A DNA stretch of 64,000 nt from Fistulifera solaris (Eukaryota): assembly GCA_030295235.1 (NCBI GenBank), contig AP026135.1, forward strand, positions 248,001 through 312,000. The letters run 5' to 3'. Below the pieces are notes generated by a model that saw only the letters and a program-made list of their open reading frames with translations, was not told where the DNA came from and did not search any database. The translations under genes and the position numbers were made by a program. Shown piece after piece: positions 20,611 to 61,998 of this stretch. The number at the start of each line of letters is the position of its first letter. Position 1 is the stretch's first letter.

Positions 20611-21926
20611 ATGCAGTCGTCTATCTCGGTACGAATCCTACGTCGGTTGTACGTGCTCTTTCTCGACCATGGCGGTCGCTCATCTTTGTCTTTTTCTTCC
20701 CTAATATTGATTGACAGAAATATCGTATAACTAAAAGGGTAGGTGGGGGATCCTTTGGTGACATTTACCTTGGGGTTGGCGCAAACGGCGAAAAGGTGCG
20801 TGCTCTGGTCATAATTTATTCGAGATCTGCTCCTCGGTCGTGAAGTGATGGTCATTGAAGTGAATGACCTCGCTGTGGAAGTCCCAAGCGTACGTTTAGA
20901 CCCAGAAACTCTATCGTGACCTATAAAAATTGCTGCTGAAGTCAGAACTGAGAGACACTAGTTCTTTGTTCTCGGTCTAGTCGATCTACTCTTTCGTCAT
21001 CTTTTACTACTTTCGCCTCGTTCGGCCTTTTTCAATATCTATACCTTGCGCTCTAACGGTTACATTATGATCACTATAAATAAAAACAGGTTGCTGTCAA
21101 ATTCGAGAAACACGGGGCTCGCTGTCCCCAGCTTCGTCATGAGTACAAAGTCTATCGTGAACTGCAAAATGCTCCCGGCTTTGCCAAAGTGCACTATTTC
21201 GGGACACAAGATTCGTACAATTTAATGGTTATGGATCTTTTAGGTCCGTCATTGGAGGATCAATTTAATAAGTGCGGCCGTCGCTTTTCACTGAAGACTG
21301 TTCTGATGATTGCCGATCAAATGCTGGAGCGTGTGGAATTGATGCATTCTCGTCATCTGATTCATAGAGACATTAAACCCGCAAACTTTGTGACAGATGC
21401 AGGAGGGCGTGCGAACGGAAACTTTATTTACTGCATTGACTTTGGATTGTCGAAGCGATACCGACACCCTCGCACACTACAACACATTCCCCAGCGCGAA
21501 GGACGTTCGTTGACAGGTACGCCGAGATACGCGTCGATCAATAATCACTTGGGTGTAGAGCAGTCTCGTCGAGACGATCTGGAGTCCATTGGCTACGTCT
21601 TGGTGTACTTTCTCAAAGGAGGACTTCCCTGGCAAGGACTAAAAGCCAAGTCGGCGACAAAAAAGTACAAGCTAATTATGGAGAAAAAGCAACAGATTAC
21701 CATTCCTGCCTTATGTCAAGGATGTCCCAGCCAGTTTGCAGAGTACCTCGCTTATTGCCGTTCCTTGAAATTTGAAGCAAAACCCAACATAGCGTACCTT
21801 CGTGGGATGTTCCGTGATCTGTTCCGCTCCCAAGGTTACACAAACAATCACAGCAGCTTGGATTGGGATTGGAACCGTGTTGAAGGAAGTGCGAGTGAAA
21901 AACCAGCTGGCGAGGTCGTGGAATAA
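20611..21926 (+). CDS. CK1: Casein kinase I (exons 20611-20628, 20718-20795, 21090-21926)
   Basis: Spliced MQSSIS|KYRITKRVGGGSFGDIYLG...EK|VAVKFE, then LLGPSLEDQF, HRDIKPANF, IDFGLSKRY, SLTGTPRYASIN, EQSRRDDLES. Confidence 0.95.
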
Positions 21927-22555
21927 ATCTTTTCAGGGACGATTTAGGATAATATATCTTCAACTTAGTAATGTGGACAGTATTTACCGTAGGCTTGACA
22001 TTGGGTCGTATTAGAGACAGGCATGCCTCAACTTTTTGACTAGGTCTACTCTGTATTTTTTGTGCGTCGAGAAGATAGTGACAAAGAATTCGAACAGTCA
22101 ACTAATAAGGGCTGATGACTCGACCTGACTTTCTCAACAACCTGAAACCTGATTGGCGGTCGAAATTTTTTGTCAAGAATGAATAGGAGTTTATGTTTTG
22201 AGTCACGGCGTGGTTGTCGGTCGGCAAGTGGGGTCCGCCTAATCTCATTTGGGGGGCAAATAAGTTGCTCTCTATGATGAAGAGCGACATAACTGAGTCG
22301 TTGCTGAGACGCATTTTATTTTTATCTTACTCCGTACTTGTCTTACTATCCATGATTTATTCAAACACGGATTCATATTGGTACCGGATCAGTTGTTCTA
22401 AACTTAACATTTCCATAACCGCTAAGATTATGGATTACTCCTTACCGCTCTACTGGAACCATTTTACACGCAAAACCGAAAAGGAAAAGGACTACCTTGA
22501 CAGATCGACAACATCTTGCATTTTACTCAGTGATAATACACAAGAAAACGGCACC

Positions 22556-41699: not shown

Positions 41700-44600
41700 T
41701 CATTCATCGAATTCATCATCATCGTAACTGCCATCTTCTTGGCTGTTGTAACTTTGTGATCCCTCTTCATCGTCGCGACTGGAATAACTGCCGGATCCTA
41801 CTTCGTCGTCATTGTAATGATTTCCCCTGCTACTTCTGCTTCTGGGCCCCTCTTCGTAGCTTCTTGAGCCATCGTCATCGTAAGAACCTTGTTCTCCGTC
41901 GTCATAGCTTCGAGAGCCTTCTTCATCATCGTAGTAGGATCCTTCACCATCTTCGTAGCTGCGAGAGCCCTGTTCGTCATCATAACGAGATCCCTCGCCT
42001 TCTTCGTAGCTGCGAGAGCCCTCTTCATCGTCATAACGAGATCCTTCGTCTTCGTCGTAACTCCGCGAGCCGTCTTCGTCATCGTAGTAAGACCCTTCGT
42101 CTTCTTCGTAACTTCGTGAGCCCTCTTCATCGTCGTAACGAGACCCTTTGCCATCTTCGTAGCTGCGAGAGCCCTCGTCATCGTCATATCGAGATCCTTC
42201 GCCTTCGTCATCGTAACTTCGTGACCCCTCTTCATCGTCGTAACGAGACCCTTCGCCATCTTCGTAGCTGCGCGAGCCCTCGTCATCGTCATATCGAGAT
42301 CCTTCGCCATCGTCATCGTAACTTCGCGAGCCCTCTTCATCGTCGTAACGAGACCCTTCGCCATCTTCGTAGCTGCGAGAGCCCTCGTCATCGTCATAGC
42401 GAGATCCTTCGCCTTCGTCGTAACTTCGCGAGCCGTCTTCGTCATCGTAGTAAGACCCTTCGGCCTCGTCGTGACTCCGTGAGCCTTCTTCGTCATCGTA
42501 ACGAGACCCTTCGCCTTCGTCGTATGATCCTTCGCCTTCGTCGTGGCTGCGAGAGTTTTCGTCGTCGTAACTCCTGGAACCATCCTGGCCATCATCGTCG
42601 TACGCGCCGTCATCCTTTTGGGAATCGCCTTCTTCGTCGTAGCTATTGGCGTCATCGCTATAACTTGCCGAGTAGTCTTCGTCGTTGTATTCATTTTGTT
42701 CAAAAAGGTCATCAGCAGTTCGTCGAATAGCATCCGCATCTTCGTATCCGTAGTCTTTGTCGTCCACAACAGCGCTCCCTTCCTCACTCCTAAAATAGCT
42801 AGCCTCCTCACTGCCTTCCTCAGTGCGTGATTGGTCGTAGCTTCCAGATTGCTCGTCTCCAGATTGCTCATCGTCATCATACTCGTCATCGTAGCTCCTT
42901 TCTTCGGAATAGCTGCCTTCATCAGAATAACTCCCCTCGTCCGAGTAGCTGCCTTCGTCTGAATAACTACCTTCGTCTGAGTAACTGCCTTCATCTGAGT
43001 AACTACCACTGTAGTCTTCATCATCATATTCATCTCCCATATTAGCCCCCAATGTACTAGCGGCAGCAATTGCAGCAGACCCATCTGTACCTCCTGCAGT
43101 AAAGTTTCGCGCTTCACGCTCGGGAATTCCCTTGCTTTTGTGCACAGCCTTGCGTGCACGTTGGGTGGCCGAACGAGCCGACATGGTTTGAAGAGTGTTA
43201 ATGAGCTCTGCTTCTCGTCCCGCAAACTGGTCCAGCATGTTATCGATATTGTCGATTTCGTCGGGTACGCACTGCTTGACGAGTTCCTCAACTTGCTTTC
43301 GATACTTCTCTCTGCGTTTCATTTCTTGCGGAGTGAGGTTTGGCTGTGATCGAGAATCTGCTGTTTCGTCATCGTCAACTTGGCTTGACTCATCCTCATC
43401 ATCGTTAGCAGAATACTGACTCCCATCATCTGTGATTTCGCCGTTTCGGGATGTTTCCGCTTTTGTAGGAACCGACAAGTCATCAAATCCTTCAAAACCT
43501 CTAGCCGCTTCCATCACGCCGTCCCAATCACCGCGATCGACCATTGCATCGAGATGACGCATATTTTCTGGTTGCACAGTTGTCGTGCGACTCACACCAT
43601 CGGTGCGGGAAAATTTGCTATTTTCATCATAATTACTAGATTCACTTTCAGTGTAATCGTTTTCATCACTTGGGTCGGCATCTTCTGTTGAAACTTCTTG
43701 AAAGCCCATGGCGTCAGCTTTCCCCATGCATCTGTGTCGTTACTAACCCACCCAAACACATCATCCGATTTCTTCAATTCGTCAGGATCGTCAAAAGCGT
43801 AGTTGGCAACATCTTCAACATTTTCGTCGAAATCCTTTTCATCGACTTGGAAGTCAAAATCCTTGTTGTCATCAGAAGCTCCGACTTTCTTTTTACCAAC
43901 CAGGCCACCAGTAGCTTTACCAACGACACCCAATCCTACGTCGCCGACTGTTTTCGTTCCCTTTATAGCTGTTTGACCTACTGTCTGCACACCTTTCACC
44001 ACTTCTCCTCCCACGGTTAAAACACCCTTTTGTACACCTTGCACAAGAGTCCCTCCTAAACCGCCGAAAGCATTGAGAACATTGCCGGTGGTCTTATCCA
44101 GTGCACCACGCATACGGGATCGCTCTCGATCTTTCGATTTTTCTGCGGCAAATGTGCCAGTTACCGGGTCCTCCTCACTTTCTTCGTCGCTATCTGGGAC
44201 CACAGTGTCAGGTTTGGCAAATAGACCACCATTATCTGAGTCATCAGACTCCTCTTCGAAACCAAAACCATTTTTTGACTTGTTACCTGGCGCCCTCTCA
44301 GCTTCGGCGCCATCGTCACTGCCGTTTTCGGTTGCCTTGCCAGATTTTCTTTTCCCTTTTAAGTTGGAAAGGCGAGAAGAAATGGTCGAGAAATCTCCGC
44401 CCTCCGAAATGAAACGATAAATGCCATAACCTCCTGCCAGAACTAAAAAGATGCAAACACAAATGATGATGATAACCTTCATAGGAGACCCGCCACCACC
44501 TTCATTGACTGGCGTCAGCGGCTGATCCGAAGGTGGTGCGGCCGGCGGCGCAGGCGAAGCGTCACGCTTTTTATGTCTGCGGTTCCGACAACACTTATGG

Positions 44601-48404: not shown

Positions 48405-51400
48405 ATGCCTTCTATCATGTCGTTCTTGGGTAAAAAGCGAAAGATCCCGCTTTGCTTGTTGCTGTTAGCCCAGCTTTCTCATGCGCAATACATCAGTTGC
48501 CGCGAGACCCTTACGAGTGCCAATCTGGATGGGGACGCAACGTTGCAGGCCGCCGAAATTCCAGGATTTGTCTTTCATCTCAGTTCCGGAATCGTTGATG
48601 CCGCTTCGGTCGATAGTTTACCCGTGCCTCTTCAAACCGTGTTCAGTTCCCGGGCAAATGCCATTAACTTGCTAGGAATATCGGATCCGACGGCTGCAGC
48701 GGCTCTTCTCGAATTAGAGACGTTCTGCGATGATGTATATAACGCCTTGGGAGAGCATCTGGGGATTGCCATAACGCAAAACGCTTGTATTGGAGCTCTA
48801 CAGACGGCCGATACCAGTCCAGGGAACGGCCGCGTCAGTTTCGAGCCGGAATTTCTCGCCTTTACCACCAGTCTGGCCGGAACCGATTTTGGCGTCACGA
48901 CGGCCGCCGAGTTACCGGCGGGCCTGATTCGCGTCTTTGATGATTTTTCCGGCGGGACGGACGTGAAGAGCTCGGCTGGATTGGAATATCTGGTTCAATT
49001 TTGTCAGCGGACAGCGCTGCAAGCGAAAATCGAAGTCGACAAACCCGACTTGCCGGCCACGACGCCACCGACACCACCTCCGGTGGCTTCCACTAGCCTA
49101 CCTGTACCTCCACTTTCCACCAGCCCACCTGTACCTCCGATGGTTGCTCCAACGCTAAGTCCTGTAGCTGCGGCCCCAATTTCACAACCAACAGCGCCGG
49201 CTCCCGTAGCGGTCGACTCCCCAATTCCACAACCAACAGCGCCGGCTCCCGTAGCGTTCGACTCACCGAGTCCAGTAGAAGCGCCGACATCGACCGGATT
49301 TGTGCTGACTGATGAATTTTACGCAAGTTGCTTAACAAGTATGCAATCATCTGATCAAAATGGAAACAATCTCATGGAAAGTTCAGAATATCCAGCTTTT
49401 ATTGATGGGATACTGGAGGGCACTTATGCGGAAACACCCTTCACTGAATTAGACCCACTGTTTCAAACGGCTTTTAACGAAATGGCGGTAGTAAGAGATA
49501 GCATCAATATATTTGGGGCAAAACCAGGAGAGTCACCAGACGCAGATCAGACTTCTTATCTACGGAAAGTTTGCTCCGCAGCGGGTCAAGCCGATTTCGA
49601 TCTCAACAGCGATGGTGGAGAATCGACGCCAGTTCCTGCTCCTGCTGGTTCGGAAACAACATCGCCAGCTCCCTTGGCGCCAGTCGATGGATTGGTGAGT
49701 CCGGAATGTCAGGCAGCGATTGATGCCGGTGGGTCATGGTCGCAAGATTCATATGCGCTGTTTGTGCAAAAGCTTGCACCCAGCTTGGACGGGACCTTTG
49801 AGACGCTTCCTTACTTGCTACAGGACAACTATAGGTGGATCATGAATGGAGAAGATACTATCATGATACCCGATACGCCTTATGGTGAGGCATATTCTCG
49901 CTTTATATGCGATCGGACACAGAGGCTCATTGACCAGCCCGAAAAAGGCCAAACGCTGGAGGAGCAATGTGTGATAGCGTTAGAAATCGCTGCCAGTGAC
50001 GGTGCAACTTTATCGCAGAACGAATACGTTGTCTTCTTAAATCAAATATCAGGATTCGCATGGGAAGGAATACAATTTGACGCGTTAGATTTGCTTTTGC
50101 GAGATGTATTTGAGGAGAATGAAGTAGAGGGGAAAGCTGTGGCAAGCTCGAATGACTTCTGCGAAGCGGTGTCACAAGCCCTCGGAGCTACACGCGCTGA
50201 AAATGCTTTCCACCAACAGTGCATAATTTCACTGTTAGCGGCTAACACCGATCTCGACAATAGCCTATCAACAGCGGAGTACGCAGAGGTCGTTTCTACA
50301 CTTGATGGTAGCACGGACGCCGTCGCCGCATTCGATGATCTTTCTAGCGATGCAAAAATAAATTATGAACTATTTGCCGAGGATAACGGTGTTCAAGTGT
50401 CAGGCCTCCTTACACCAAATCGAACTCAGGAAGACTCGGAATCTCTGCGAGGCTTGTGCGATAGTATCAGAGCAATCATTAATGATCCCATTGATAGTAG
50501 GAATGCCACTCGAGTGACAGTATTTAACGCTTTTGTTCTACAAAATGATTTGGGGTTCACACAGAGAGACTTGGAGACAGGAGTACTACGAAATACTCTA
50601 GAAAGCGCCTACCGAAACTTTGTAACAGCACAAGTGGCGAAGCTGGTCAAGCCCACAGGCGGCCGACGGAAGCTCTCTGCTATTGTCCTACTAGATGATA
50701 CTATTCGACTGTATCGGATTGAAGACAACCAATGTCCAAGTGGAGCAAGCGGTAGTTGTCAAAGAGTTTATGGTTCCTTTGACGTGGAAGCCGCGCAGGA
50801 CGATTCAAATCTCTCTAGTGAATACTCTTCAGCAACTCAGGCAGCAATCGATGATGGTGCATTACAAGACGAGGTCACCAAACTTGACCCAGACTTTGAG
50901 TTGGTTGTATTTTCCTCGTCAGAAGTGTTGCGCCCTGGTGAAGGGGTTTATCCTAGTGCTAGCACGGGTGGAAAAGATAAAACCGTCCTTGTAAGCGTCT
51001 TGACAATTCTTTCCGGGGCTCTATTTGGAATGCTTGGTGCAGCTGCAGTGGCCTATTATATTGTGCGAAAAAATCTTCCCGCACCAGGAACTGAGACAAA
51101 CCCCGTGAAGGCAGACCCGGAGCTGGCTTTGTTCGACCATTTCGACACGAATGATGAGAATAACCAGACAGAAGCGCCTACAGATGATCCATATGGGCAC
51201 CTTGCCCTTTTAACAGAAAATCCCGAACTACAAGCACCAGGGATGTATCCGAACAGAGCCGAAGTGAGCAATCTGAGGAGTTTGAGCGGTATGCCATTGA
51301 CGCAGATGAGGCTAATCAGAATTTTAATTTCCCCGCTTCTCAAGCTACGTCTGACGAACAGAGTGACGATGAAGGCAGTATTAACAGTGACGCCATGTTT

Positions 51401-52699
51401 CAAAAAGAGGAGAATAGATGGAGCAACAACTCGCCAATCATCTCTCCGGTAAATGAACGCGGAAGAAAAGAGGAGGTAGATGCCCAAGTCACTAGCCCTG
51501 GTCAAAATCAATTTAGTTATGAAAAGGAGGACCATTTGGACGACAATGATGACGATCCTTATCACATGGATCTTCAACCATTGCAGTATGGAGCGTTAAG
51601 GCAACCGTCTTCGCCTTCTTATGAACAAGTAGGGGCGCAACAGGAAGAATTGGATCAAGTTGAATCATTGAACGCCTCAGCTTTTAATTCTGAATACGAT
51701 CTTCAAAATCTTGAGGACGATATTCAAAACGATAACACGATGCAAATGGCACCGCCCCATGATAGCGACGAAGAGTATTCAGTGGAAGTTCAAGAAGAAT
51801 TTTCTGAAGAAGTTCAAAATGAAGAATTTTCCGAAGAATTTCAAGAAGAAGAATTTTCGGAGGAAATAGTTGAGGAAATGGTCAGTGAGTCTGAAGTCGA
51901 CGTGGAAGATATCGATGAAGAGGGAGAGAGCGAGGACGAAAGAAGTGCCCTCGCGGACGATGCCGATTTGGAAGGCGAGAGCGAAGAGGATGATTGCGAA
52001 GAAGAAAAAAGTGAGCATGAAGAAAGCGAAGAAACAGAAGATGATGGTGAAAGTGACGGTGACTCAGAGAACGATAACGCGGAAGCACCACCTCCTTACC
52101 GAGATGAAATCGCGGCTTTGATGCAACAAGTCATGCCTGATGAAATGGAAAACCTTGACGCAATGCTCGAACAATTTTCGGGAAGGGAAGCTGAATTACT
52201 TGAGACCCTTGAAAATATGGTTAATACCGGCAGTGATGACGATTACTCAGAAGAATGCGAGGACGGTGAAGAGGATGACGAGGACGATGAGCAGGAAAGA
52301 GAAGTGGGCTCAGAGGAAGAAGAAGAAGAAGACGAGAGCGAAGAAGAGGAGGAAGAAGAAAACACTAAGTCAGCCGAAAGCGAAAGTGAAGAAGAACAAG
52401 AAGAATTAGTAGAAGAAAGTGACGCTGGCGAAAGCGAAGGGGAAGAGACTGCAGCAGGAGAAAGCGAAGGCGAAGAATCCGAATCCGAAGCAGCCACTAG
52501 TGAAGAAGAAGAATATGAATCTGATGCAGCTGAAAGCGAAGAAGAGGAAGAAGAGGAGGCTGCTAGTGAAGAGGATTCGGAAACAGAAGAGATTGAGGAA
52601 GAGGAATCGGAAGAAGCCAGCGAAAGTCAATCCGAGGAAGAAACAGAAGCTCCAGAAGCTAGTGATAGCGATGACAGCGATGACAGTGACAGCAGTTAA
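48405..52699 (+). CDS. Divergent paralogue of the 41.7-47.0 kb protein: signal peptide, Cys-flanked EF-hand-like repeats, Pro-rich linkers, SEA-like domain, TM, Glu/Ser-rich tail (frameshifts ~51240-51420)
   Basis: ANLDGDATLQAAE, SDQNGNNLMESSEY, ANTDLDNSLSTAEY; TM VLVSVLTILSGALFGMLGAAAVAYYIV. It shares the PDE..N.D.ML.QF.GREAEL..TL..M domain with the neighbour. Confidence 0.8.
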
Positions 52700-52960
52700 T
52701 AATAGGGTCAGCTAGAAGTTCTTCCTAGTATGTTAAATTACCAATTCCTATAGAAAGTTTTCTTGTCATCTTTTGGCTTCCATACCAGGCTTATTTCTCA
52801 TTATTGTGTTACGTGGTACCCTAGGCGTTTTGTGTCACGTAAACCAAGTCCCGAGTCATTGCCTGAAACAATGATACGTAGTACGTAGTAATTTTGACGG
52901 TACCAGTAGCAAAGTTCTCACTATTTCGACGACGACTCATTTCTTGACGCAGGTGCGACC

Positions 52961-53567
52961 ATGTTCTTACGGTCATCCTTCTTCATTGCCGCTGTGTGGA
53001 CCCTAAGATCCGTGCAGGGACTCAGCTTTTCAACCAAACGTTCCTCCTCAACGAAAAACGATTTACTTGTTCATTCATCAAGGCGTACATTCTTGCAAAT
53101 TGCTCCTTGTCTTCTTTTTCCTCACCTTACCAATGCCGCCATAAAAAATAATCAGACTGTTTTCCGAGAAGGAGAGTCGCTGACCATTGAAGAAGCCAAG
53201 GCGCGGTTTCAAGAAGGACGAACATCAATGAACAATTTGCTGGAAAACTATGACGCCATTGCGGCGAATGGCGGAGACAATGTTCGACGTTATTTAGGGA
53301 CGGTAGGCACTACCTCTGGATTGTATGGTATTCAAAAGGTTCTGCGGACGTTACAAGACGAAGCGAATGATATTGTGGAGTATACGGAAAGTTTGAGTGA
53401 CTTTGAATACTATCTGAGTGCAGCAGACACGGCAGCTTATTCTGCCATATTCGTGGAATATTCCGCCGCGAAAACGAAACCCGAGGAGTTTTTTTGCCGA
53501 TGCGAAGAAAGCCGTGCAACGAATGAGAGCCTGTATGGACCAGATGGCACAAGAATTGGCTCTTTAA
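52961..53567 (+). CDS. Plastid thylakoid-lumen protein (tripartite presequence, twin-Arg), PsbQ-like helical bundle; frameshift ~53490
   Basis: Signal peptide, SRRTFL twin-Arg motif with A-x-A-like cleavage, GGDNVRRYLGTVG. The corrected C-terminus is ...ADAKKAVQRMRACMDQMAQELAL*. Confidence 0.6.
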
Positions 53568-53696
53568 AGAAACACAAGTAGCCCATAGATCAGTTTTTTA
53601 GAAATCATAGTCGAGCCATGTCGTACACATCGCCTGAAGACTGCTTTCATTACAGAAATTTAATGCGTGCGTTTTCGGGTAAGGTACCTGGTAACC

Positions 53697-54242
53697 TTAG
53701 TTCAAAGGCTTAACGCGCACAATAGCCTCCACCTCAACGGAAATGTCGAGGGGTAAACTATTCGTACCGATAGCGGATCTAGCATGTAAACCTCTTTCTT
53801 CTCCGAATACTTCCTTCATCAGATCCGAGCATCCATTTAAAACTTTATGTTGTTCATGAAAGTCGTTGCTCGATTGCACAATCCCAAATAGTTTGACAAT
53901 TTGTTCGACTCGATCCAAATCGCCACCGAGTTCCGTTTGTAAGGTCGCAATTAAATTCAAACCACACTGACGGGCTGCCGCATACCCGTGGTCCAGATTT
54001 TGGACCGAACCGATGGATCCCGTCATCAAAGAGCCATCTTCGAGCATGGGCAGATGCCCCGACAGAAACAGCAAATCACCCGAAGACTGGACGGGGACGT
54101 AATTCGCCGCGGCTTTGGGTGCTGGTGGGAGCGTGATTCCCAGCTCTCGCAGCCTGTTTTCCGTATGTACCATTGAAAGCGCAGTGACAGGAGTAAACGG
54201 CGTGTTGGGAAAGAAGGCGGCGGATAGGAATCCCATGGTCAA
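53697..54242 (-). CDS. RidA/YjgF/UK114 family protein
   Basis: LRELGITLPPAP...ANYVP, LFLSGHLP, VLNGCSDL, HARSAIG..SLP...VEVEAIV. Confidence 0.92.
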   Translation of the reverse strand: MTMGFLSAAFFPNTPFTPVTALSMVHTENRLRELGITLPPAPKAAANYVPVQSSGDLLFLSGHLPMLEDGSLMTGSIGSVQNLDHGYAAARQCGLNLIATLQTELGGDLDRVEQIVKLFGIVQSSNDFHEQHKVLNGCSDLMKEVFGEERGLHARSAIGTNSLPLDISVEVEAIVRVKPLN

Positions 54243-54499
54243 TGAAATGCGCGGTGCTGCGAAAAGATGCGCAAAAGAAACGGTCGCGGCTTACGTCATA
54301 ACTAAGAAACACCTCATGGTTCAATCACGCTAAAGACTAAAGACACCTGTTTGTTGCGAAGAACGCCATAGTGCTTGAATATAGGCAAACTCAAAACGAA
54401 TCATGTCAATATTTAACGCTAGACATCACAGTTTAAAAAAATCGTAAGTAATAAATATTACGACGACAAGGCGTACAAGGAGTTTTTACATTATCATTA

Positions 54500-56782
54500 T
54501 TATAATTGTGAGTGCACGTGTCTCTTCCGAAGCAATGTTAGCTTTCGTTCTGGTTGCGCATTCCGACTCGATATGAGTTTCGATACTTCAATTGCCGTCA
54601 TGTTCCTAACATCAATGTCATCAATTGCAATTAGTCGATCATCTACACAGACCTTATCACCGAGAATAGAGGAGTCCTTGATTGCATAGACCACGGGGGG
54701 ACCCTCGTTTGGAGTATCAATAATGAGACCCAACTTCCCGGCTGGCGCGATAACATCCAGGACTTGTTCATTACGGGCCACGCTGCCAAACAGTCGGGTC
54801 GTTTGATTCGCTCGCACACTACTGCTCCCTCGCGAGCTCACTGAACTGGATGCGGATCTTATGCGATGCTTGTTCTCGTACGCCATCACTGCTTCTGCAC
54901 CAATCTTAACCGGAAACACGGAATCAGGAGCAGACACGACGCTGTCTTCTTCCAGCTTATTGAAATCGTATACTAACGAAGAGCCAGAAGTGGCCGAGTT
55001 CACCGATCGTATTTGATCACGCAAAACGTAAGCCTTGTCGTAATCATACTCATCCGTAGCAACACTATCATAAGTAAGAAAAAGGTGTGAGCAAGGGCTA
55101 GTTAACATGAGCAGTCGATACCAAATGAATAACGTACCTTTGAAGGCCGTAGCTTTGTCCTTTTTCCAAAGAAGCAACCTTCGATATCACCGGTTGTTCG
55201 GGGAGATCTTGCTCTACATCCCCAAATTGATCCTCTGGGAGTTCCGAGTTTGTCGATAGCTCATGTGCTTCGTTGCCTTTGTCTCTTTGACGCTTTCTTC
55301 GATTAAATCCAACAAATGCTGCGAGAGCTAGAGCAACAATCAACAGAGCAAAAGAATACCGACAATACCACCGGCACTCATTCCATCGTCATAGCTATCT
55401 GGTTTATCTGGCTCTTCACCGTTGCCTGCGCCCTCTTGGTCAGGTATGACAGGAATAGCTAAAGGTACCTCGACTTGCCCCATATTTGAGAATGTCTTTA
55501 AGATATTTCCATATTCCTTGTTGCCGACATTGTCTTCAAAAGGCAAGGTAGCGTATTCTTCTGATGACAACGTACCCTCTCGAGCCACATAGGTCAATTC
55601 TTGATCATAAATGATGGTATTGATGGAGGTGTTGGTTTCATCCACCGTCACATTATTTGACACAAACGAAATTTGTGTACTGACATTTTCAACATTGCCC
55701 GCTTGCAAACGGCGTAAGGGACTAGGACCAGGGCCACCCCCGAAGAAGTTCGTAAACCAATCAGCTGTTGCTTTTTCCCATTCTTCGGTTTCGACCAATT
55801 CTCCCGCATTTCTCAACGTTAATTGCAGGCCACGCAATGCTTCGTTCACTACAGATCCTTCCGGTGGAGCCACTGGCGCATTGACACGAGCCGTCGGACT
55901 CGGTGAACCAACACTCGAAGGTGCACTGCTCTGAATCGCGCTGGGTGCGATGGTGGGTGAAATGCTCGGTACCAGAGATGGACTCGTGCTAGGCTGATCT
56001 GACGGCTGAGCTGTGGGTGACGCCGTCGGCGACATCGTTGGGGCGCGCGTTTCTCCCGGCATCAAAGGAACTTCCACTGGGAGCTCTAAATCCTTCCAAT
56101 TCAAACCAGAGCGCAGCCGTTGTCCATACTGTGTATTGGCGTCAAATAAGGTAAAGGGATATCGAGCATAGAAGACGGCCGTGTTGGACCATGGATATGC
56201 TTCAAACGCCACAAACTGCGAATAAATAATCTCTATATACGGGACATTGTTCACGGTATACGTTGTTTGATTTTCGAGTACAACAAAGGTCCGGAAATTG
56301 AAGAGGGGCTGATCACTGGTGGTCATTACTTTCTCATAAAACTGGAGCATCCACTCTTCGGTTAAAGTTTCCCAAATGATAACCTCCTCTTCCTTAAGGG
56401 CCTTCACTCCCTTAAACCGTATTTCGATCATTTCAACATTTTCGCGTACTGCAACAGTTGTCACCACGGTTGGTTCTGGAAGAACGACACTGGGTGTCGG
56501 TGCTAAAGGGGCCGTCGCGTTCGAAGCCACTGGAGCAGATGGAGAAGTTTGATTGGAAGTCGAATTCGTCCCGCCTGTCGTGAAACTAGTATTTTGTGAA
56601 ATTGGCGTCGTTTCATTGGAAAGCGTAATCGTTTCATTCGTTGTTATGTTTTGTTGTGGAGACGACGTGATGGTTCCATTGACGAGAACAGCAGTACCAT
56701 TCAGTGGCCTTGATGGCGCATCGCTTGGTTGCGCAGCAATCTGCCGCAGCAGGATAAAGATCAAAACAGGAAGGAGTCTCAT
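54500..56782 (-). CDS. Type-I membrane mucin-like receptor: signal peptide, P/T/S stalks, two SEA-like domains, TM, Tyr motif, C-terminal PDZ (intron 55065-55137; frameshift ~55345)
   Basis: ORFs 55340..56782, 55098..55343 and 54500..55177 join up. LRRLQ loop; APAGKLGLIIDTPNEGPPVVYAIKDSS...DDRLIAIDD (PDZ). Confidence 0.85.
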
Positions 56783-57288
56783 CAGGAACTTTGCCAGCAG
56801 CTACTATATGGTTGCAGGATGCGTAATAGGAGGTGGCTCTCGACCGTTTCACAAGACCGAAAGGTTATGTGTTCGGCGATGTGAAGCCGGAGTGGCGTGG
56901 TGGTTTCCGGATGTTTTGCTACGCGCGCTTCCGCGACGCGTGATTACGCCTAAATAATCAAAGGTATTTAACAAGAAAGTCGTTTAAACAATGTTATTAA
57001 ATAGGTGGAATGCGCACAGTCTCTTGTATAGTATTATGGCGTTCTAAGAGCTCTTTGTTCAACGGTACCGAGATTACTAGGGCAAACCAAACTCAACAGA
57101 AATACACACGTTTTACATAAGACACTACTTTGAAGAAGACAACAATTCACGACTCATCATTCGTGCGCGACGTATTACCGAATATATAATCATCATGTGC
57201 TTGGTCTCACTTATTCATCACTTAATTACCAATATTGCTAAAACTTGCCATGTAACAAATTGCTGATTCAGCTGGTCTTACGTCCACT

Positions 57289-59418
57289 TTAAGCAGAGAC
57301 GGAGTGGTCTTGACTTTTCTTGTCAAACCTGCGCACTCTACGGAATCCCCGATTCACAATCTTGCACAAGTGACCGCAATAATCAGCATGGGTGTGAAAG
57401 AACTTATGCATTCCTTCCTTGCCCTGATCAGTGCGCCCATGAACATTCTTCCGACAGGTGTATCCGTAAGGATTGTAGTAGTGTATGACAGGATCTGAAA
57501 ACATCAAAACATTGTTCAATTCATCGTAGACACCTTGAAGATCACAAACAAGCCGCTTTCTACCTGAGGCCCAGTAGCTGAAGTGGGAAAATGCCTGTGC
57601 CACCTCAAAAGGACTAAAAACTATTGCGCCCTTTTCTAAAAAAGACAGCTGGTGCCTCCTTTTCCTCGTCTGAGTCTTCTTCGTCTTCCTCACTGCCTTC
57701 TTCGATCATGTCACCTTCAAAGTGAGCAACACGGGTCATATTGATTGCAGCATGGCGAAGACTTTCTTGAGAAAAAATAGGCGCTTCCTTCATACCATCA
57801 ACAAAACCATTGTTGCAATTCCATTTGTGCCACTTGGTGTGGTCAAGTTTGTCTTCGACCAACACACTCAAAACTCCAAGATTGGGGTCGTCCAACTCAT
57901 AAATCGAGCAATCCAGGAAACTGACAGTTGGCGTACGTTGATCGACACGATACGATTCCTTCAACTTTTTGTTAAATTCCTTCGCAAGCCGTCGAGCCAG
58001 TTGTTGCGTTTTGCAAAAAGAAGCTGTGTATTCTTTCCTAGCCTTCTCATTGGAACAATCAACATCGAGGATCAAGCGGCTTTCCTTTGCTACCATTGGC
58101 CTTCCAACAATTGTCCAATGATCAGCGGCAAGCTCGAAGAATCGATAAGCAAATCTTTCAGCTCCTTCACCAAAAGGAACTTTGGCAAATGCCACGTACC
58201 GAGCGCAAGGATGCTGCAACTCTGCTTTTTCGTACTTGTGTTTTCTTCGGTTTTTATTGATACCATCCAACTCAACCCATTCCTTGTAAATTTTCCGCTT
58301 CACTTTATCCAATGAATAGATCCAGAAGTCGTGACAAGAAACTCTCAAAACTACCTGCCCTGCCTTACTGCGAGACTCCCTGAGAATACTTCGGACCTGT
58401 TGTTGCTTCTTTGACTTTGCATCGGTCAACTCGAGTTGGGTCAACGAAATGGATGTTGCAACAGAAGTAAAGACATCTCCGAGTGCAGAAGATGTCATCG
58501 ATGACAGACAAAAGTCGGCATGGGCCCCATAATCATCTGCGGCGTTCACCATGCGTTTAAGCACGTCAAAGTCGTCGTAATCTCCAATAGCAATTGCTTT
58601 GAAAGTGAGACGCCGACCAAACTGCTTGGCTAAATTACCCACTGTGTCCTCTATGATTTGAAAGCACGCTTCCTTGTCCATTCTGTATCCGGTTGCAGCA
58701 TCAGAAGGTCTTCCATCTGTAGGAAAGTGAGTGATACAGCACACGCAGCATTCGGGTTCCGAAGAAGTAACATCTCTGCTTGTTTCAGGCTAGGAAGGAA
58801 AGGTCCATGTCCCCTCGGTGCCACGAGTGTTTCACTGTACAACCTAATAAGCTTGTTGTATAGAACCCAGGAGCAAGGTTCTTCTTCAAAGATCACATTT
58901 GTAGTTTCTCCCAATGTAACAACTGAGATGACATCAGTGAGACCGCCTTCTCCTGTTTCCAATCGACTTGCTAAAAAGTCCAAAGCAATCGATACCCATA
59001 CTGCCGCCAAACGGGTTCTTGTGCCCCATACATCCGCTTGCTTCATACTCCCCAAGGTGTCCACCACCAAAACTGAATTTGAAGTCCAGCAATCAAGATT
59101 GTCCTGAATGTTTCGACGAGCCTTCGTGTACTCCACGTGCATATCCGCGGTCAAAGGAACCTCTTCCAGCTCCAAAGGTTTTGCGTAGCATGTGACCTCT
59201 TCACCGGTTACTTCATTCACAATGTAAGTGATGTCCTTGTAGATGTACATGGCAGCTTTGTCACCGTTCGGTCGAGGATGTGTGCCATATCGAATGCCGT
59301 ACTTTCTCGCAGCTTGAAGATCTTTCTTGTCAATTCCTCGCTGCTTTCGTCGCAATCGCCCGTGTTCTGTTTCCACAAAGGTAATTGCTGAAGTGCGGAT
59401 GGAAGTGGCGCTCTTCAT
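57289..59418 (-). CDS. Alpha-kinase (eEF2K/MHCK family) fused to a vWA domain and an N-terminal DUF4258-like domain (frameshifts ~58720, ~57655)
   Basis: Kinase: PFGEGAERFAY, MVAKES, LVEDKL, KWNCNNG, QAFSHFSY, LVCDLQGV, SDPVIH, GRTDQG..GM..FF.TH...C..LC. vWA: LVVDTLGSM...TDG. N-terminus: TEHGRLRRKQRGIDKKDLQAARKYG. Confidence 0.88.
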
Positions 59419-59849
59419 GATGCCTGGGGTCTAGTATGAAGAACAAATAATGCAAAATCAGCTCGAGCTTTTCTAGTTTTTGCAAGCTTCTCGCATGCTT
59501 AAATAATGAAAGCATGAAGTGGGGTAGCCACATGCTGAATTCTACCGCAGAAGTATACCCAACAAAACACCGCGACGTGGATCGTTTGATGAGGAATAAG
59601 TTCTATTGGTCCGTGAAATTTTAGTTACTTGACAAAGCAAGAAAGATCTATCATCCCAACTTTAGAAAGGTCGCCAAGACGAGGTGCGCGCAATGCAAGC
59701 CCCCATGCGTGACGTACCATTTCTACGTACTATATGTACTGAAAGTCCGCATATTCCCAAATGTTGGTTTTCCTTTGAAGTGCGTGATATCACGGCGGCG
59801 CTAGGTTGAGATGCATAAACAATAACCCGATGCACTATTATTATTGATA

Positions 59850-61998
59850 TCATTCCATAGGAACGTTTCGAATGATGGTTAACTTCCGCGATGGATTGTT
59901 GCTTTTCTTTGATATCAATTTCGAGACGCGAATGGCCGTCATACTGCATACATCTTCATCGTCGACAGCCACTAGTTTGTCACCGACTTGTATTTGATCT
60001 GCAATCACCGATGTGTCTTTGACGGCATGTACCACCGGTGCACCGTCGTCGGGTGTGTCAATCACCACTCCCAATTTTCCGGCGGGAGCAATAATGTCTA
60101 TCACTTGCTCTTGGATGCCACTGTCACGAAGCTGCGATTCTGCTCCCAAAGCAGCTAATGCGGCTGTATTGAGTGTCCCCGCAGTCAATCGAGTCGTATC
60201 GCCCATAGTTCCGCCGGCACTGGAAACCACAGATGTATCACCGCCACCGTAAAGCTTGGAGTAGTCGTAATCGACCGTTGCAACACTGAAATGACCGTTC
60301 CGTAAGCAACAATGTTGCCAGACAAATAGCAATATATGTACAGAATGATCTTACCTTTGATCACCGTAGCCAACATCGAGGATCTTGCTCTCGAATGATT
60401 TTTTGTTTAGGAGGCAGATACGGATCTTCCATTAATGATAAATCTTCTTCGCTAGGACTGATAATGAACTGAGGAGACACTTCCGACTGATTGTCACGTT
60501 GATCACGTTGTTCGACACCCACACTGCCGTCACCACTTCCTTGAACGAAACTGTAAGCAACATAGGCGCATACCAACAGCACGGCAGCACCTGCCACTAT
60601 AATACCGATCAGAACACCCATCGACAATCCGCTGTCATCGTCGTCATTACCTCCTTCTCCTTCTTCTGGTGTGGCGTTTGGACCGAGTATACTTGGTACT
60701 TCCAAGGGTAAAACAAGGTCCCTCATATTGGCAAATTCTGTCCGCAACAATTCTCCGTATTCCGTGTTGGCTGCTTCATCATTGAAGGGCAACAAGGCTA
60801 CGACTTCAGCATCAGGGGTGTCATTCGTAGCAGCATAATCCATTGTTTGGTTGTACAAGATTGCATTATCTTCGTCCTGTCGAACAAACGTAAAGGCGCT
60901 CACCATCGATGCTTGCAAGCGTCGACGACCATTATTGACAAAGTAACCTTCAAACCATTCGGCCGTCACTCGTTCCCACATATCAATCTCATTGTCTTCC
61001 AAAACACCACCACCTTCCAACGGCAACCGAATGTTCATCAAACTGACCTCTACGGGTTCCACGGGAGTAGCGGCCGCACTCGGTGCCAAGGATGTCTCTA
61101 CCATGCTGGGTACCGCCGACGGCGCTTCACTGGAGGCTAGTGCGGTAGGCGCTTGACTCAGCACGACGCTCGGACTCTCACTCGACGCCAAAGTAGGCGA
61201 GACCGATGGAGCCGTCGTATTCCGCACTGTCGGCAAAAGAGATGTTGTCGGTGCCTCGGTGGGAGCAAAGGTAGGTGCCCGTGTTTGTCCGGGTAACAGT
61301 GGTACCGCAATAGGAACTTTCAGATTTTCCCATCCGGCAAACGTCAGATTTAACGCCGTGGCGTATTGCAAATTTCCTTCAACTGTCGTCAACGGATACA
61401 CCGCGTAATAACCAGGCGTCTGGGTCCCATTGAGCGACGTGTAGGTGAGTACTTGGGAATAATTGAATGTGGTAACAATCACTTCGTCCCGCAACACACT
61501 GTTCTGCGACAGAAAGGAAATCACGGTCGTAAAGTTGCGAATGCCAACGTCGTTTTGGGCATAAAATTGATTGAAAAAGTTTCGAGTGACGTTTTCCCAC
61601 AACGAATAGCGTTCTTCTGCCTCAATCAGTGGAGGAACATTCTCAAGTTGCAGGGTAATTCCGGAAATTGTAACGTTGACGGGGAACGATTGAGACACCG
61701 GTGGAAGACTGGGAAGGGTGGTGGCTGTCGGCGGTGCTGCTGTAGGTGGCAGCGACGTCAAAGGAGGGCCCGTGGACGAATTGGTGGGGATGGGAGAAAG
61801 TGGATTCGTCGTAGGAGAAAGTACCGGAAATATAGTTACAATAGTTGCATTGGTTGTGTTGGTCGTATTCGTAGTATTGGATATTTGTGCGACGACGAGT
61901 GGCATCCAGCAAAGCAAGATCAGAAACCGTCTATTCATGTTTCTCATCTGTGTCGTTTTACTAAAACTAGCTATAATGTACCTCTTGCTTCTTCCCAT
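59850..61998 (-). CDS. Paralogous mucin/SEA-like-TM-PDZ receptor (intron 60286-60354; frameshift ~60400)
   Basis: Signal peptide, PT stalks, two SEA-like repeats (RRRLQ), TM VLIGIIVAGAAVLLVCAYVAY, YGDQS|VATVDYDYSKLY, and PDZ APAGKLGVVIDTPDDGAPVVHAVKD. Confidence 0.85.

What the first reader, a model, noticed from the sequence alone, without database searches (positions are those of the whole stretch)
41700..52699. Head-to-head paralogue pair of giant receptors with disulfide-clamped extracellular EF-hand repeats
Seen: two divergently transcribed genes ~1.36 kb apart are built from the same ~80-aa repeat: C-x5-6-(A/S)D-x-x-x-D-x-x-L-x-x-x-E(Y/F)-x-x-F...F..LP..L...F..L......I.......C. There are 5 copies in the minus-strand gene and about 6 in the plus-strand gene. 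Each gene then has one shared domain (YNAFVLAN...AYDQFV...CP...C.TVYAAFDV versus FNAFVLQN...AYRNFV...CP...CQRVYGSFDV) and a TM. Established: D-x-D-x-D-G-x-L-x-x-x-E is the EF-hand Ca2+ loop. Inference: Ca2+-dependent, cadherin-like adhesion or sensing molecules made from an EF-hand repeat, possibly heterodimers from a bidirectional promoter.
Basis: partly seen in the sequence, partly recalled or inferred. Interest (0 to 1): 0.7.

Follow-up and report, generated by a model that had tools for sequence, protein, structure and literature searches.

The report
Diatom calcium-repeat surface protein pair
Two neighbouring diatom genes encode large membrane proteins built from a repeated, disulfide-locked calcium-binding module; they belong to a conserved but apparently unstudied family shaped like animal cell-surface tethers, and their head-to-head layout looks incidental.

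Summary
Genes A (minus, 1782 aa) and B (plus, 1431 aa) are real; poly(A) ends are seen, no intron is, and the three ORF breaks are one-base assembly errors absent from all four runs.

The repeat models as an EF-hand pair with one Ca2+ loop and one dead loop. Ligands 1/3/5/12 are kept in 566 of 652 ungapped family repeats, but cleanly in only 5 of 11 here. A repeat profile found 616 proteins; 73 of the best 150 have the full layout.

A and B are ancient subfamilies. They neighbour each other elsewhere too, but in tandem in L017 and apart in L018, so a bidirectional promoter is not needed. No cadherin fold. Best reading: a Ca2+-stabilised, mucin/dystroglycan-like surface tether whose tail binds a cytoplasmic partner; location and partner are unknown. 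Ten literature searches found no description, nor did this scan's notes on other DNA.

The parts
41700..47046 (-). Gene A, type I membrane protein, 1782 aa once two one-base assembly errors are allowed for; no intron seen
   Evidence: second subgenome copy is open across 44567; relative P0006 is one 1560-aa chain
46906..46953 (-). A: hydrophobic core of the probable signal peptide, after a 30-residue basic leader
   Evidence: by eye and 10-residue hydropathy 2.0; no signal-peptide predictor was run
46690..46878 (-). A repeat 1 (complete EF loop, short second half)
   Evidence: Pfam EF-hand_1 E 2.4e-5, under cut-off
46375..46632 (-). A repeat 2 (Gly at loop position 3, one inserted residue)
46117..46332 (-). 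A Pro/Ala/Val/Thr-rich mucin-like linker, length differs between copies
   Evidence: 87-nt skip in run X1 (table 5)
45859..46086 (-). A repeat 3 (Thr at loop position 3)
45490..45759 (-). A repeat 4 (Thr at loop position 3); modelled
45133..45387 (-). A repeat 5 (complete loop); modelled
44566..45030 (-). A SEA-like ferredoxin-fold domain with a Cys pair and a basic RxL/RR loop
44414..44476 (-). A transmembrane helix
   Evidence: hydropathy 2.86
43488..43565 (-). A cytoplasmic 'WDGV' helical motif, marks subfamily A and the single-repeat subfamily C
43131..43319 (-). A conserved cytoplasmic three-helix domain with the A-type C-terminal helix
   Evidence: dN/dS 0.03
41703..43040 (-). A acidic Ser/Tyr-rich repeat tail (13 GSRSY and 9 GSRY units, 12% Tyr)
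41672..41672 (-). poly(A) site of A
   Evidence: 19-T loose end in run X3 (table 7)
47047..48404 (.). 1358-nt gap between the two start codons; best kept between subgenomes near each gene start (74-90%), 35-78% in the middle
48405..52699 (+). Gene B, type I membrane protein, 1431 aa once one one-base assembly error is allowed for; no intron seen
   Evidence: GAX28502.1 is one 1415-aa chain, 85% identical over 938 columns
48405..48485 (+). B probable signal peptide
   Evidence: by eye; hydropathy 2.3
48498..49004 (+). B repeats 1 (48498-48728, complete loop) and 2 (48786-49004, 14-residue loop)
49044..49295 (+). B Pro/Thr/Ser-rich mucin-like linker
49329..50459 (+). B repeats 3 (49329-49574, complete), 4 (49707-49910, degenerate), 5 (49968-50162, degenerate), 6 (50220-50459, complete)
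50505..50936 (+). B SEA-like domain with an RRKL loop
   Evidence: homologous to the modelled A domain
50985..51059 (+). B transmembrane helix
   Evidence: hydropathy 2.15
52082..52231 (+). B conserved cytoplasmic three-helix domain inside a tail that is 40% Asp/Glu
   Evidence: dN/dS 0.06
52721..52721 (+). poly(A) site of B
   Evidence: 24-A loose ends in runs X3 and X4 (table 7)

Best explanation
A and B are the two long-diverged multi-repeat members of a diatom family of single-pass surface glycoproteins that work as Ca2+-stabilised tethers, like animal transmembrane mucins, dystroglycan or PCDH15. Shown: the genes, transcripts and domain order. Modelled: each repeat is a four-helix EF-hand pair whose first loop keeps Ca2+ ligands, whose second loop has none, and whose first and last helices carry the conserved Cys pair; a SEA-like domain sits next to the membrane. 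Inferred: outside the cell or in a secretory lumen the sites stay filled, so Ca2+ is structural and the repeats are rigid beads on glycosylated Pro/Thr linkers. Inferred: the basic loop in the SEA-like domain is a processing site that lets the ectodomain be cut yet held, or shed. Inferred: the long tail binds a cytoplasmic partner, probably cytoskeletal or trafficking, through the three-helix domain, so the protein links extracellular material (adhesive polymer, organic wall layer or another cell) to the cell cortex. The pair arose by an old local duplication and a later inversion turned A round.
For: Domain order is fixed: 98 of 102 hits of 900 aa or more have the SEA-like domain, 109 of 116 SEA-bearing hits have a TM within 120 aa, and 73 of 150 have repeat-SEA-TM-cytoplasmic domain in that order. 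Loop profile over 676 repeats: D/N 95% at 1, N/D/S 89% at 3, D/N/S 97% at 5, hydrophobic 99% at 8, E 95% at 12. Both Cys in 627 of 631. Second loop has all four ligands in 0 of 597. Fold matches: PCDH15 MAD12 Z 7.6 (rmsd 3.2, 99 aligned), CELSR1 6.9, MUC16 SEA5 6.8 (3.6, 111 aligned), dystrophin-glycoprotein complex chain 6.3; repeats match centrin Z 6.5 (3.2, 75 aligned) and calpain-3 6.8. R[RKH][LM] occurs in 81 of 117 SEA-like domains against 8.4 on average in 200 shuffles. Between subgenomes dN/dS is 0.03-0.06 in A's cytoplasmic part and B's three-helix domain, against 0.15-0.25 in repeats and SEA-like domains. L017 has A then B in tandem; L018 has A on the same strand as, and 5 kb upstream of, orthologues of the genes that follow B here.
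Against: No localisation, Ca2+-binding, cleavage or partner data. All fold scores are under Z 8 and unrelated ferredoxin folds tie with the SEA hits (PheRS Z 7.2); Foldseek gave no match at E 0.001 or better. Six of 11 window repeats have imperfect loops and Gly6 is kept in only 17% of the family. The canonical SEA self-cleavage motif (GSVV-type, recalled) occurs in 1 of 117. A's leader is atypical. The repeat set was gathered with a profile that includes the loop, which favours intact loops. The inversion rests on two loci.
Confidence: 0.55

Rival explanations
1. The proteins are the unidentified transmembrane link of the raphid diatom adhesion-motility complex: the tail is pulled by raphe myosins along actin, and the Ca2+-loaded ectodomain grips the secreted adhesive. 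This is a special case of the best explanation.
For: [quoted passage not shown] All taxon-named members seen are raphid pennates (grouping partly recalled): Fistulifera, Seminavis, a Bacillariaceae MAG, Mayamaea, Amphora; 5 of 30 clusters looked up had a taxon, plus 1 of 21 hits. The tail is the most constrained part. Weak Pfam hits of the three-helix domain to the myosin-VI-binding GIPC GH2 domain in 10 of 37 members, best E 0.022.
Against: 25 of 30 clusters had no taxon, so restriction to gliding diatoms is not shown. The Seminavis member Sro71_g039210 is not in the 1,069-row pennate/raphid/benthic signature list of PMC7335047. GH2 is a four-helix fold (PMC5461112, passages) and ours models as three helices; unrelated helical families score as well (DHX37_C, 19 of 37). 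Another candidate, a spondin-like protein, has been proposed (PMC9724779, passages).
Confidence: 0.12
2. They are silica deposition vesicle or cell-wall morphogenesis membrane proteins like silicanin-1 and the SAPs: luminal domain cut at RXL, cytoplasmic domain bound to the cytoskeleton.
For: Type I topology, RXL-like site, Pro/Thr repeats and a conserved cytoplasmic domain are features of SiMat7-like and SAP proteins (PMC5501833, PMC5647440, passages). An RxL/RRL motif is enriched in the SEA-like loop.
Against: In those families RXL follows the signal peptide and the SAP domain lies next to the TM. Here the motif is inside the membrane-proximal domain and the conserved domain lies about 340-370 aa from the TM. 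No EF-hand protein is mentioned in the main text of the silica-proteome preprint (10.1101/2021.09.18.460806, passages; supplements closed; centric species only).
Confidence: 0.15
3. They are receptors that sense external Ca2+ or force and signal through the tail, for example by ectodomain shedding and release or phosphorylation of the tail.
For: EF loops with graded ligand sets; SEA-like domain with a basic loop; Ser/Tyr-rich repeats in A-type tails, median 10 GS-x-Y units against 1 in the others.
Against: No catalytic domain in either tail. The Cys clamp between first and last helix should block the calmodulin-type opening (inference). At seawater Ca2+ (about 10 mM, recalled) ordinary EF sites would stay saturated.
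Confidence: 0.1
4. One reading: A and B are co-transcribed from one bidirectional promoter and act as an obligate heterodimer.
For: Both carry poly(A) ends in the same run X3. Adjacency recurs: L017 and consecutive Mayamaea locus tags MPSEU_001084100 and _001084200 on a 205,489-base contig. P0066 (A) and P0020 (B) both come from ENA contigs of 20,690 bases, perhaps one contig.
Against: L017 is tandem, not divergent. L018 (A) and L056 (B) each lack the partner in 7-10 kb of flank. Adjacency is also what an old local duplication leaves behind.
Confidence: 0.08

Closest known systems
EF-hand pair domains (centrin, calmodulin, S100, calpain PEF; CATH-style EF-hand fold)
   Same: Four-helix pair with a 12-residue D-x-N/D-x-D...E loop and a short strand at position 8; Z 5.5-6.8; profile hits calmodulin and calcineurin B loops at E about 1e-4.
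   Different: On the non-cytoplasmic side, one live loop per pair, Gly6 mostly lost, a conserved Cys pair joining first and last helix, 2-11 copies in tandem on a membrane protein. Extracellular EF-hand proteins such as SPARC (recalled) carry a single pair.
SEA-domain surface proteins: PCDH15 (MAD12), CELSR1, MUC16, TMPRSS6, GPR126, dystroglycan, IA-2
   Same: Membrane-proximal beta-alpha-beta-beta-alpha-beta domain before one TM helix, Z 5.7-7.6; Pro/Thr-rich linkers; Ca2+-binding repeats further out; long tail.
   Different: Repeats are helical EF pairs, not cadherin beta-sandwiches; no Pfam SEA hit; GSVV-type motif in 1 of 117, a basic RxL loop and a Cys pair instead; tail unrelated.
Diatom silicanin-1/SiMat7-like proteins and SAPs
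   Same: Diatom type I membrane proteins with a signal peptide, an RXL-type site and (SAPs) a conserved cytoplasmic domain proposed to meet the cytoskeleton (passages).
   Different: No EF-hand repeats described there; RXL and the conserved domain are placed differently. No direct sequence comparison was run.
Public entries GAX28502.1 (Fistulifera solaris FisN_38Hh004), CAB9499877.1 (Seminavis robusta Sro71_g039210), GKZ01331.1 and MPSEU_001084200 (Mayamaea), A0A7S3LAC7 (Amphora)
   Same: Members of this family; GAX28502.1 is 85% identical to B and matches the second subgenome copy.
   Different: Annotated only as hypothetical, uncharacterised or 'EF-hand domain-containing'; four of these identifiers searched found 0 papers.

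Membership tests
EF-hand superfamily | helix-loop-helix with a 12-residue loop | tested here: met
   model of A repeats 4 and 5: H8-18, loop with strand 25-26, H28-37; same in repeat 5
EF-hand superfamily | oxygen ligands at loop positions 1, 3, 5 and 12 | tested here: met
   566 of 652 ungapped family repeats (24 of 676 gapped and set aside); 5 of 11 window repeats without insertions
EF-hand superfamily | Gly at position 6 (canonical calmodulin-type loop) | tested here: not met
   Gly 17%, Asp 22%, Asn 22% of 676; so not the calmodulin-type consensus
EF-hand superfamily | occurs as a pair of hands | tested here: met
   second helix-strand-helix in the model; 66-80 residues align to EF-hand pairs, Z 5.5-6.8; second loop lacks ligands (0 of 597 with four)
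EF-hand superfamily | binds Ca2+ | not testable with these tools
   needs ITC or a structure
SEA domain | ferredoxin-like beta-alpha-beta-beta-alpha-beta fold | tested here: met
   strand 254-266, helix 279-305, strands 321-338 and 350-363, helices 368-392, strand 398-403
SEA domain | extracellular, next to the membrane | tested here: met
   TM within 120 aa in 109 of 116
SEA domain | homology to known SEA domains | tested here: inconclusive
   6 of the top 8 structural rows are PCDH15, CELSR1 or MUC16 chains or Nup54 (Z 6.8-7.6) but PheRS and MscS domains tie; no Pfam SEA hit
SEA domain | GSVV self-cleavage motif (MUC1 type only; recalled) | tested here: not met
   1 of 117
Cadherins | beta-sandwich EC repeats with Ca2+ bound between domains | tested here: not met
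   repeats model as alpha-helical; no cadherin Pfam hit
Silicanin/SAP SDV proteins | RXL after the signal peptide; SAP conserved domain adjacent to the TM | tested here: not met
   RxL lies in the membrane-proximal domain and the conserved domain is about 340-370 aa past the TM against descriptions
Silicanin/SAP SDV proteins | SDV localisation | not testable with these tools
   needs imaging
GIPC GH2 (myosin VI binding) domain | four-helix fold and sequence homology | tested here: inconclusive
   Pfam E 0.022-0.076 in 10 of 37 members, far under cut-off; model has three helices

The most novel reading that the evidence does not exclude
The A/B proteins are the long-sought transmembrane link of diatom gliding: multi-repeat versions of an older single-repeat protein, expanded in raphid diatoms, whose three-helix tail domain binds raphe myosins and whose Ca2+-loaded EF-pair array grips the adhesive strands. 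This would be an independently built dystroglycan/tip-link-like force path that uses EF-hands in place of cadherin repeats.
Probability: 0.12. Interest if true: 0.88.

Novelty: new variant of a known kind. Interest (0 to 1): 0.52.

Why it matters
The model of diatom gliding requires a membrane-spanning link that has not been identified (PMC10547550, passages), and few of the membrane proteins proposed to tie the cytoskeleton to the silica wall are characterised. This family has the anatomy such a link needs, occurs as a conserved A/B pair, and is directly testable by tagging and knock-out. Apart from function, a tandem, disulfide-clamped, single-site extracellular EF-hand pair joined to a SEA-like domain is a module combination with no Pfam model in the library searched.

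Tried and rejected
Introns at the ORF breaks: rejected; reads show one-base insertions and the only joint is an 87-nt TC..GA skip in a Pro/Ala repeat in one run. Pseudogenes: rejected; dN/dS 0.03-0.35 in every region. Recent local duplication: rejected; AU test p 7e-9 for holding A with B and its two closest relatives. No run is on record as RNA; X2-X4 give little cover of 47005-48345 while X1 spans it, but missing cover is no evidence, and contigs give no start sites, strand or expression level. Complex prediction of A repeats 1-2 with B repeats 1-2 plus four Ca2+: no verdict, score 0.00, alignments not used. Cytoplasmic domain: no PDB sequence hit under E 0.96, only generic three-helix bundles by fold (best Z 6.2), GIPC GH2 not listed, Atlas hits under 0.9. 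Atlas search of repeats 3-5 gave EF-hand clusters at 0.80-0.84, a lead only. P0001 against PDB gave only Pro/Ala low-complexity matches. Pfam: only sub-threshold EF-hand hits in the window proteins; one relative carries precomputed PF27023, a family the scanned library did not return, so its identity is unknown. Own-genome search with A repeats 3-4 found only the two A copies, 6 candidates scored, so copy number is a lower bound. Literature: searches gave 0 papers; some searches listed papers, none describing this family by title or abstract. Most subscription papers are not in the library. The Mayamaea paper's 2 supplements lack the two locus tags, and it uses other gene ids. 10.64898/2026.03.25.714157 has no EF-hand mention (passages). 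Range outside diatoms was not determined: only the best 150 of 616 hits were returned.
Full report
1. Setting. The window is G000:C16:248001-312000 of a 51.7-Mb, 62-contig genome. The whole gene pair has a second copy on C15 in the same arrangement, 93% identical in the protein stretch tested. A named protein, GAX28502.1 of the diatom Fistulifera solaris, is 85% identical to gene B and matches the C15 copy. The organism is therefore F. solaris or very close, with two subgenomes.

2. The genes are real. A is split over three ORFs and B over two. Contigs of four runs from one study each show one extra base at 43721, 44567 and 51207, all in homopolymers, and listed contigs bridge each place (tables 4 and 8). 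The C15 copy is open at two of the three places, shares the break at 43721 and has others of its own. Relatives are single chains (P0006, 1560 aa; GAX28502.1, 1415 aa). Allowing for the errors, A is 1782 aa and B 1431 aa, with 1358 nt between the start codons. Poly(A) loose ends lie at 41672 (X3) and 52721 (X3, X4). No GT-AG joint was seen. No single contig spans a whole gene, and the runs are only guessed to be RNA.

3. Anatomy. Each protein has a probable signal peptide (judged by eye and hydropathy; A's follows a long basic leader), 5 or 6 Cys-to-Cys repeats with Pro/Ala/Thr linkers, a 145-155-aa membrane-proximal domain, one TM helix and an acidic tail. Pfam gives only sub-threshold EF-hand hits in 1 of 5 fragments.

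4. Family. A profile of the 11 repeats found 616 proteins at E 0.001 or better among 1.84 billion representatives, 134 at 1e-30; the best 150 were returned. Of these 150, 116 have the membrane-proximal domain, 109 of the 116 a TM right after it, 77 the cytoplasmic domain, and 73 all parts in order; none of the 109 has a repeat after the TM. Repeat number runs from 2 to 11. Trees of the last repeat plus the membrane-proximal domain separate an A type (mostly 4 repeats, WDGV motif, Ser/Tyr-rich tail) from a B type (mostly 5-11 repeats). In a 38-row tree I picked from the larger one, the split has support 85/84, and 99/98 if the Mayamaea B protein is set aside. Holding the window's A with B is rejected (p-AU 7e-9). 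A third type with one longer repeat, several WDGV motifs and the same cytoplasmic domain occurs on C13/C14 and in at least 8 of the 46 metagenome loci. Of 30 clusters looked up, 5 had a taxon (Fistulifera, Bacillariaceae, Seminavis, Amphora, Mayamaea), and 1 of 21 hits (Mayamaea). All are raphid pennates (grouping partly recalled), but this sample cannot show restriction.

5. The repeat. Over 676 repeats the loop reads D/N at 1 (95%), N/D/S at 3 (89%), D/N/S at 5 (97%), a hydrophobic residue at 8 (99%) and E at 12 (95%); Gly6 is only 17%. All four side-chain ligands are present in 566 of 652 ungapped loops and both Cys in 627 of 631. In the window only 5 of 11 loops are complete and uninterrupted. 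AlphaFold2 of A residues 419-826 with 55 sequences (mean pLDDT 84.5, pTM 0.48) gives four main helices per repeat, a short strand in the Ca2+ loop and another before the last helix. This is an EF-hand pair: centrin Z 6.5 (rmsd 3.2, 75 aligned), calpain-3 Z 6.8, S100A7 6.2. The second loop has four ligands in 0 of 597. The disulfide is inferred from Cys conservation on the first and last helix; I did not measure the distance in the model.

6. The membrane-proximal domain models as beta-alpha-beta-beta-alpha-beta. Its best matches among 48,161 chains are PCDH15 MAD12 (Z 7.6), CELSR1 (6.9), MUC16 SEA5 (6.8), and TMPRSS6, GPR126 and a dystrophin-glycoprotein complex chain (6.3), mixed with unrelated ferredoxin folds (PheRS 7.2, MscS 6.7). 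Foldseek alone found nothing at E 0.001. I call it SEA-like; homology is not proven. A basic R[RKH][LM] motif occurs in 81 of 117 copies against 8.4 in shuffles. In A the corresponding basic stretch lies in a low-confidence loop after the first helix, and the Seminavis member carries several hundred residues inserted there. RXL is a known processing site of diatom wall proteins (PMC5647440, passages). Cleavage here is inferred.

7. The tail. The shared domain models as three helices (pLDDT 81.9) with no specific fold or sequence match. Weak Pfam hits include GIPC GH2 (10 of 37 members, best E 0.022) and DHX37_C (19 of 37); I treat these as noise-level leads. Between subgenomes A's cytoplasmic part has dN/dS 0.03-0.06 and B's domain 0.06, against 0.15 and 0.19 for the repeats, 0.25 and 0.23 for the SEA-like domains and 0.20 for the rest of B's tail. 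The strongest constraint is inside the cell, which points to a conserved binding partner.

8. Gene order. Most of the 46 metagenome loci are too short to test. L017 has A then B on the same strand 1.4 kb apart. L018 (A; 7.6 kb upstream, 9 kb downstream), L021 (A; 7 kb and 3.5 kb) and L056 (B; 10 kb and 7 kb) show no partner. Mayamaea B and A have consecutive locus tags, orientation unknown. In L018, orthologues of the two genes that follow B in the window lie 5 kb downstream of A in A's direction. The simplest history is an old tandem A-B pair, an inversion of A in this lineage, and separation in others. A bidirectional promoter may exist here but is not a conserved feature.

9. Mechanism. Shown: two transcribed genes, fixed domain order, conserved ligands and Cys, purifying selection. 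Modelled: the three folds. Inferred: surface or luminal location, Ca2+ as a structural ion, glycosylated linkers, processing in the SEA-like loop, a cytoplasmic partner. I put 0.55 on a Ca2+-stabilised tether of unstated process, 0.15 on an SDV/wall role, 0.12 on the gliding link, 0.10 on a sensor and 0.08 on the obligate heterodimer.

10. Literature. I saw passages of PMC10547550, PMC11420354, PMC9724779, PMC5501833, PMC5647440, PMC7335047, PMC5461112, 10.1101/2023.03.06.531300, 10.1101/2021.09.18.460806 and 10.64898/2026.03.25.714157, and searched supplements of PMC9724779 and PMC7335047. None of those passages describes this family. The Seminavis member is absent from the signature-gene sheet of PMC7335047, a mild point against a clean raphid-only range; that paper's main supplementary PDF was too large to read. 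Ten full-text searches turned up no description. Closed bioRxiv supplements of the adhesive-trail and silica proteomes, and subscription papers, could list members.

11. Verdict. This is a conserved, apparently uncharacterised diatom family that combines known module types in a new way: a new variant of the SEA-bearing surface tether. Interest 0.52.

Noticed in passing
L063 1600-4750 (G000:C13, copies on C14): Type C paralogue: one longer, Cys-richer repeat with a canonical EF loop, SEA-like domain with an RRL loop, TM, several WDGV motifs and the same three-helix domain; possibly the ancestral form. C14 also holds a second, partial copy of the tail 2 kb away.
   Followed up: partly
L014/L015 (G000:C16:118013 and C15:134474): Long acidic, Ser-rich ORFs carrying a diverged copy of the three-helix domain, with no repeat or SEA-like hit in the loci fetched; the wider stretch L064 was fetched and scanned with no hit listed above threshold shown for it only indirectly, so treat as unexamined.
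   Followed up: no
window 54500-56800 (-): Another probable type I membrane protein: Pro/Thr repeats, an RRLQ motif in what looks like SEA-type domains, a TM, and a C-terminal PDZ-like domain (E 0.0014); a second PDZ-ending ORF at 59850-60350. Suggests a wider set of RRLQ/SEA-like surface proteins in diatoms.
   Followed up: no
window 40422, 47188 and 53489: More one-base homopolymer assembly errors, two of them in flanking genes (LRR protein 40336-41604 and the gene at 52910-53581), shown in run X1.
   Followed up: partly
P0039 (Seminavis Sro71_g039210): The SEA-like domain is interrupted by a Thr/Pro/Ala-rich insert of several hundred residues that contains the RRVQ motif and a further EF repeat.
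   Followed up: no
window 43750-44400 (-): A's membrane-proximal tail, including a Gly/Val/Thr-rich stretch, is 98% identical between subgenomes (dN/dS 0.03) although it looks low in complexity; unexplained.
   Followed up: partly
window 21509-21928: 98% protein-level match to the end of metagenome locus L060, far higher than any other cross-species match; not identified.
   Followed up: no
window 57614-59430 (-): Alpha-kinase gene (Pfam E 2e-12) split over several ORFs; anthranilate phosphoribosyltransferase-type gene at 38861-40006 and a RidA/YjgF gene at 53697-54290 are ordinary.
   Followed up: no
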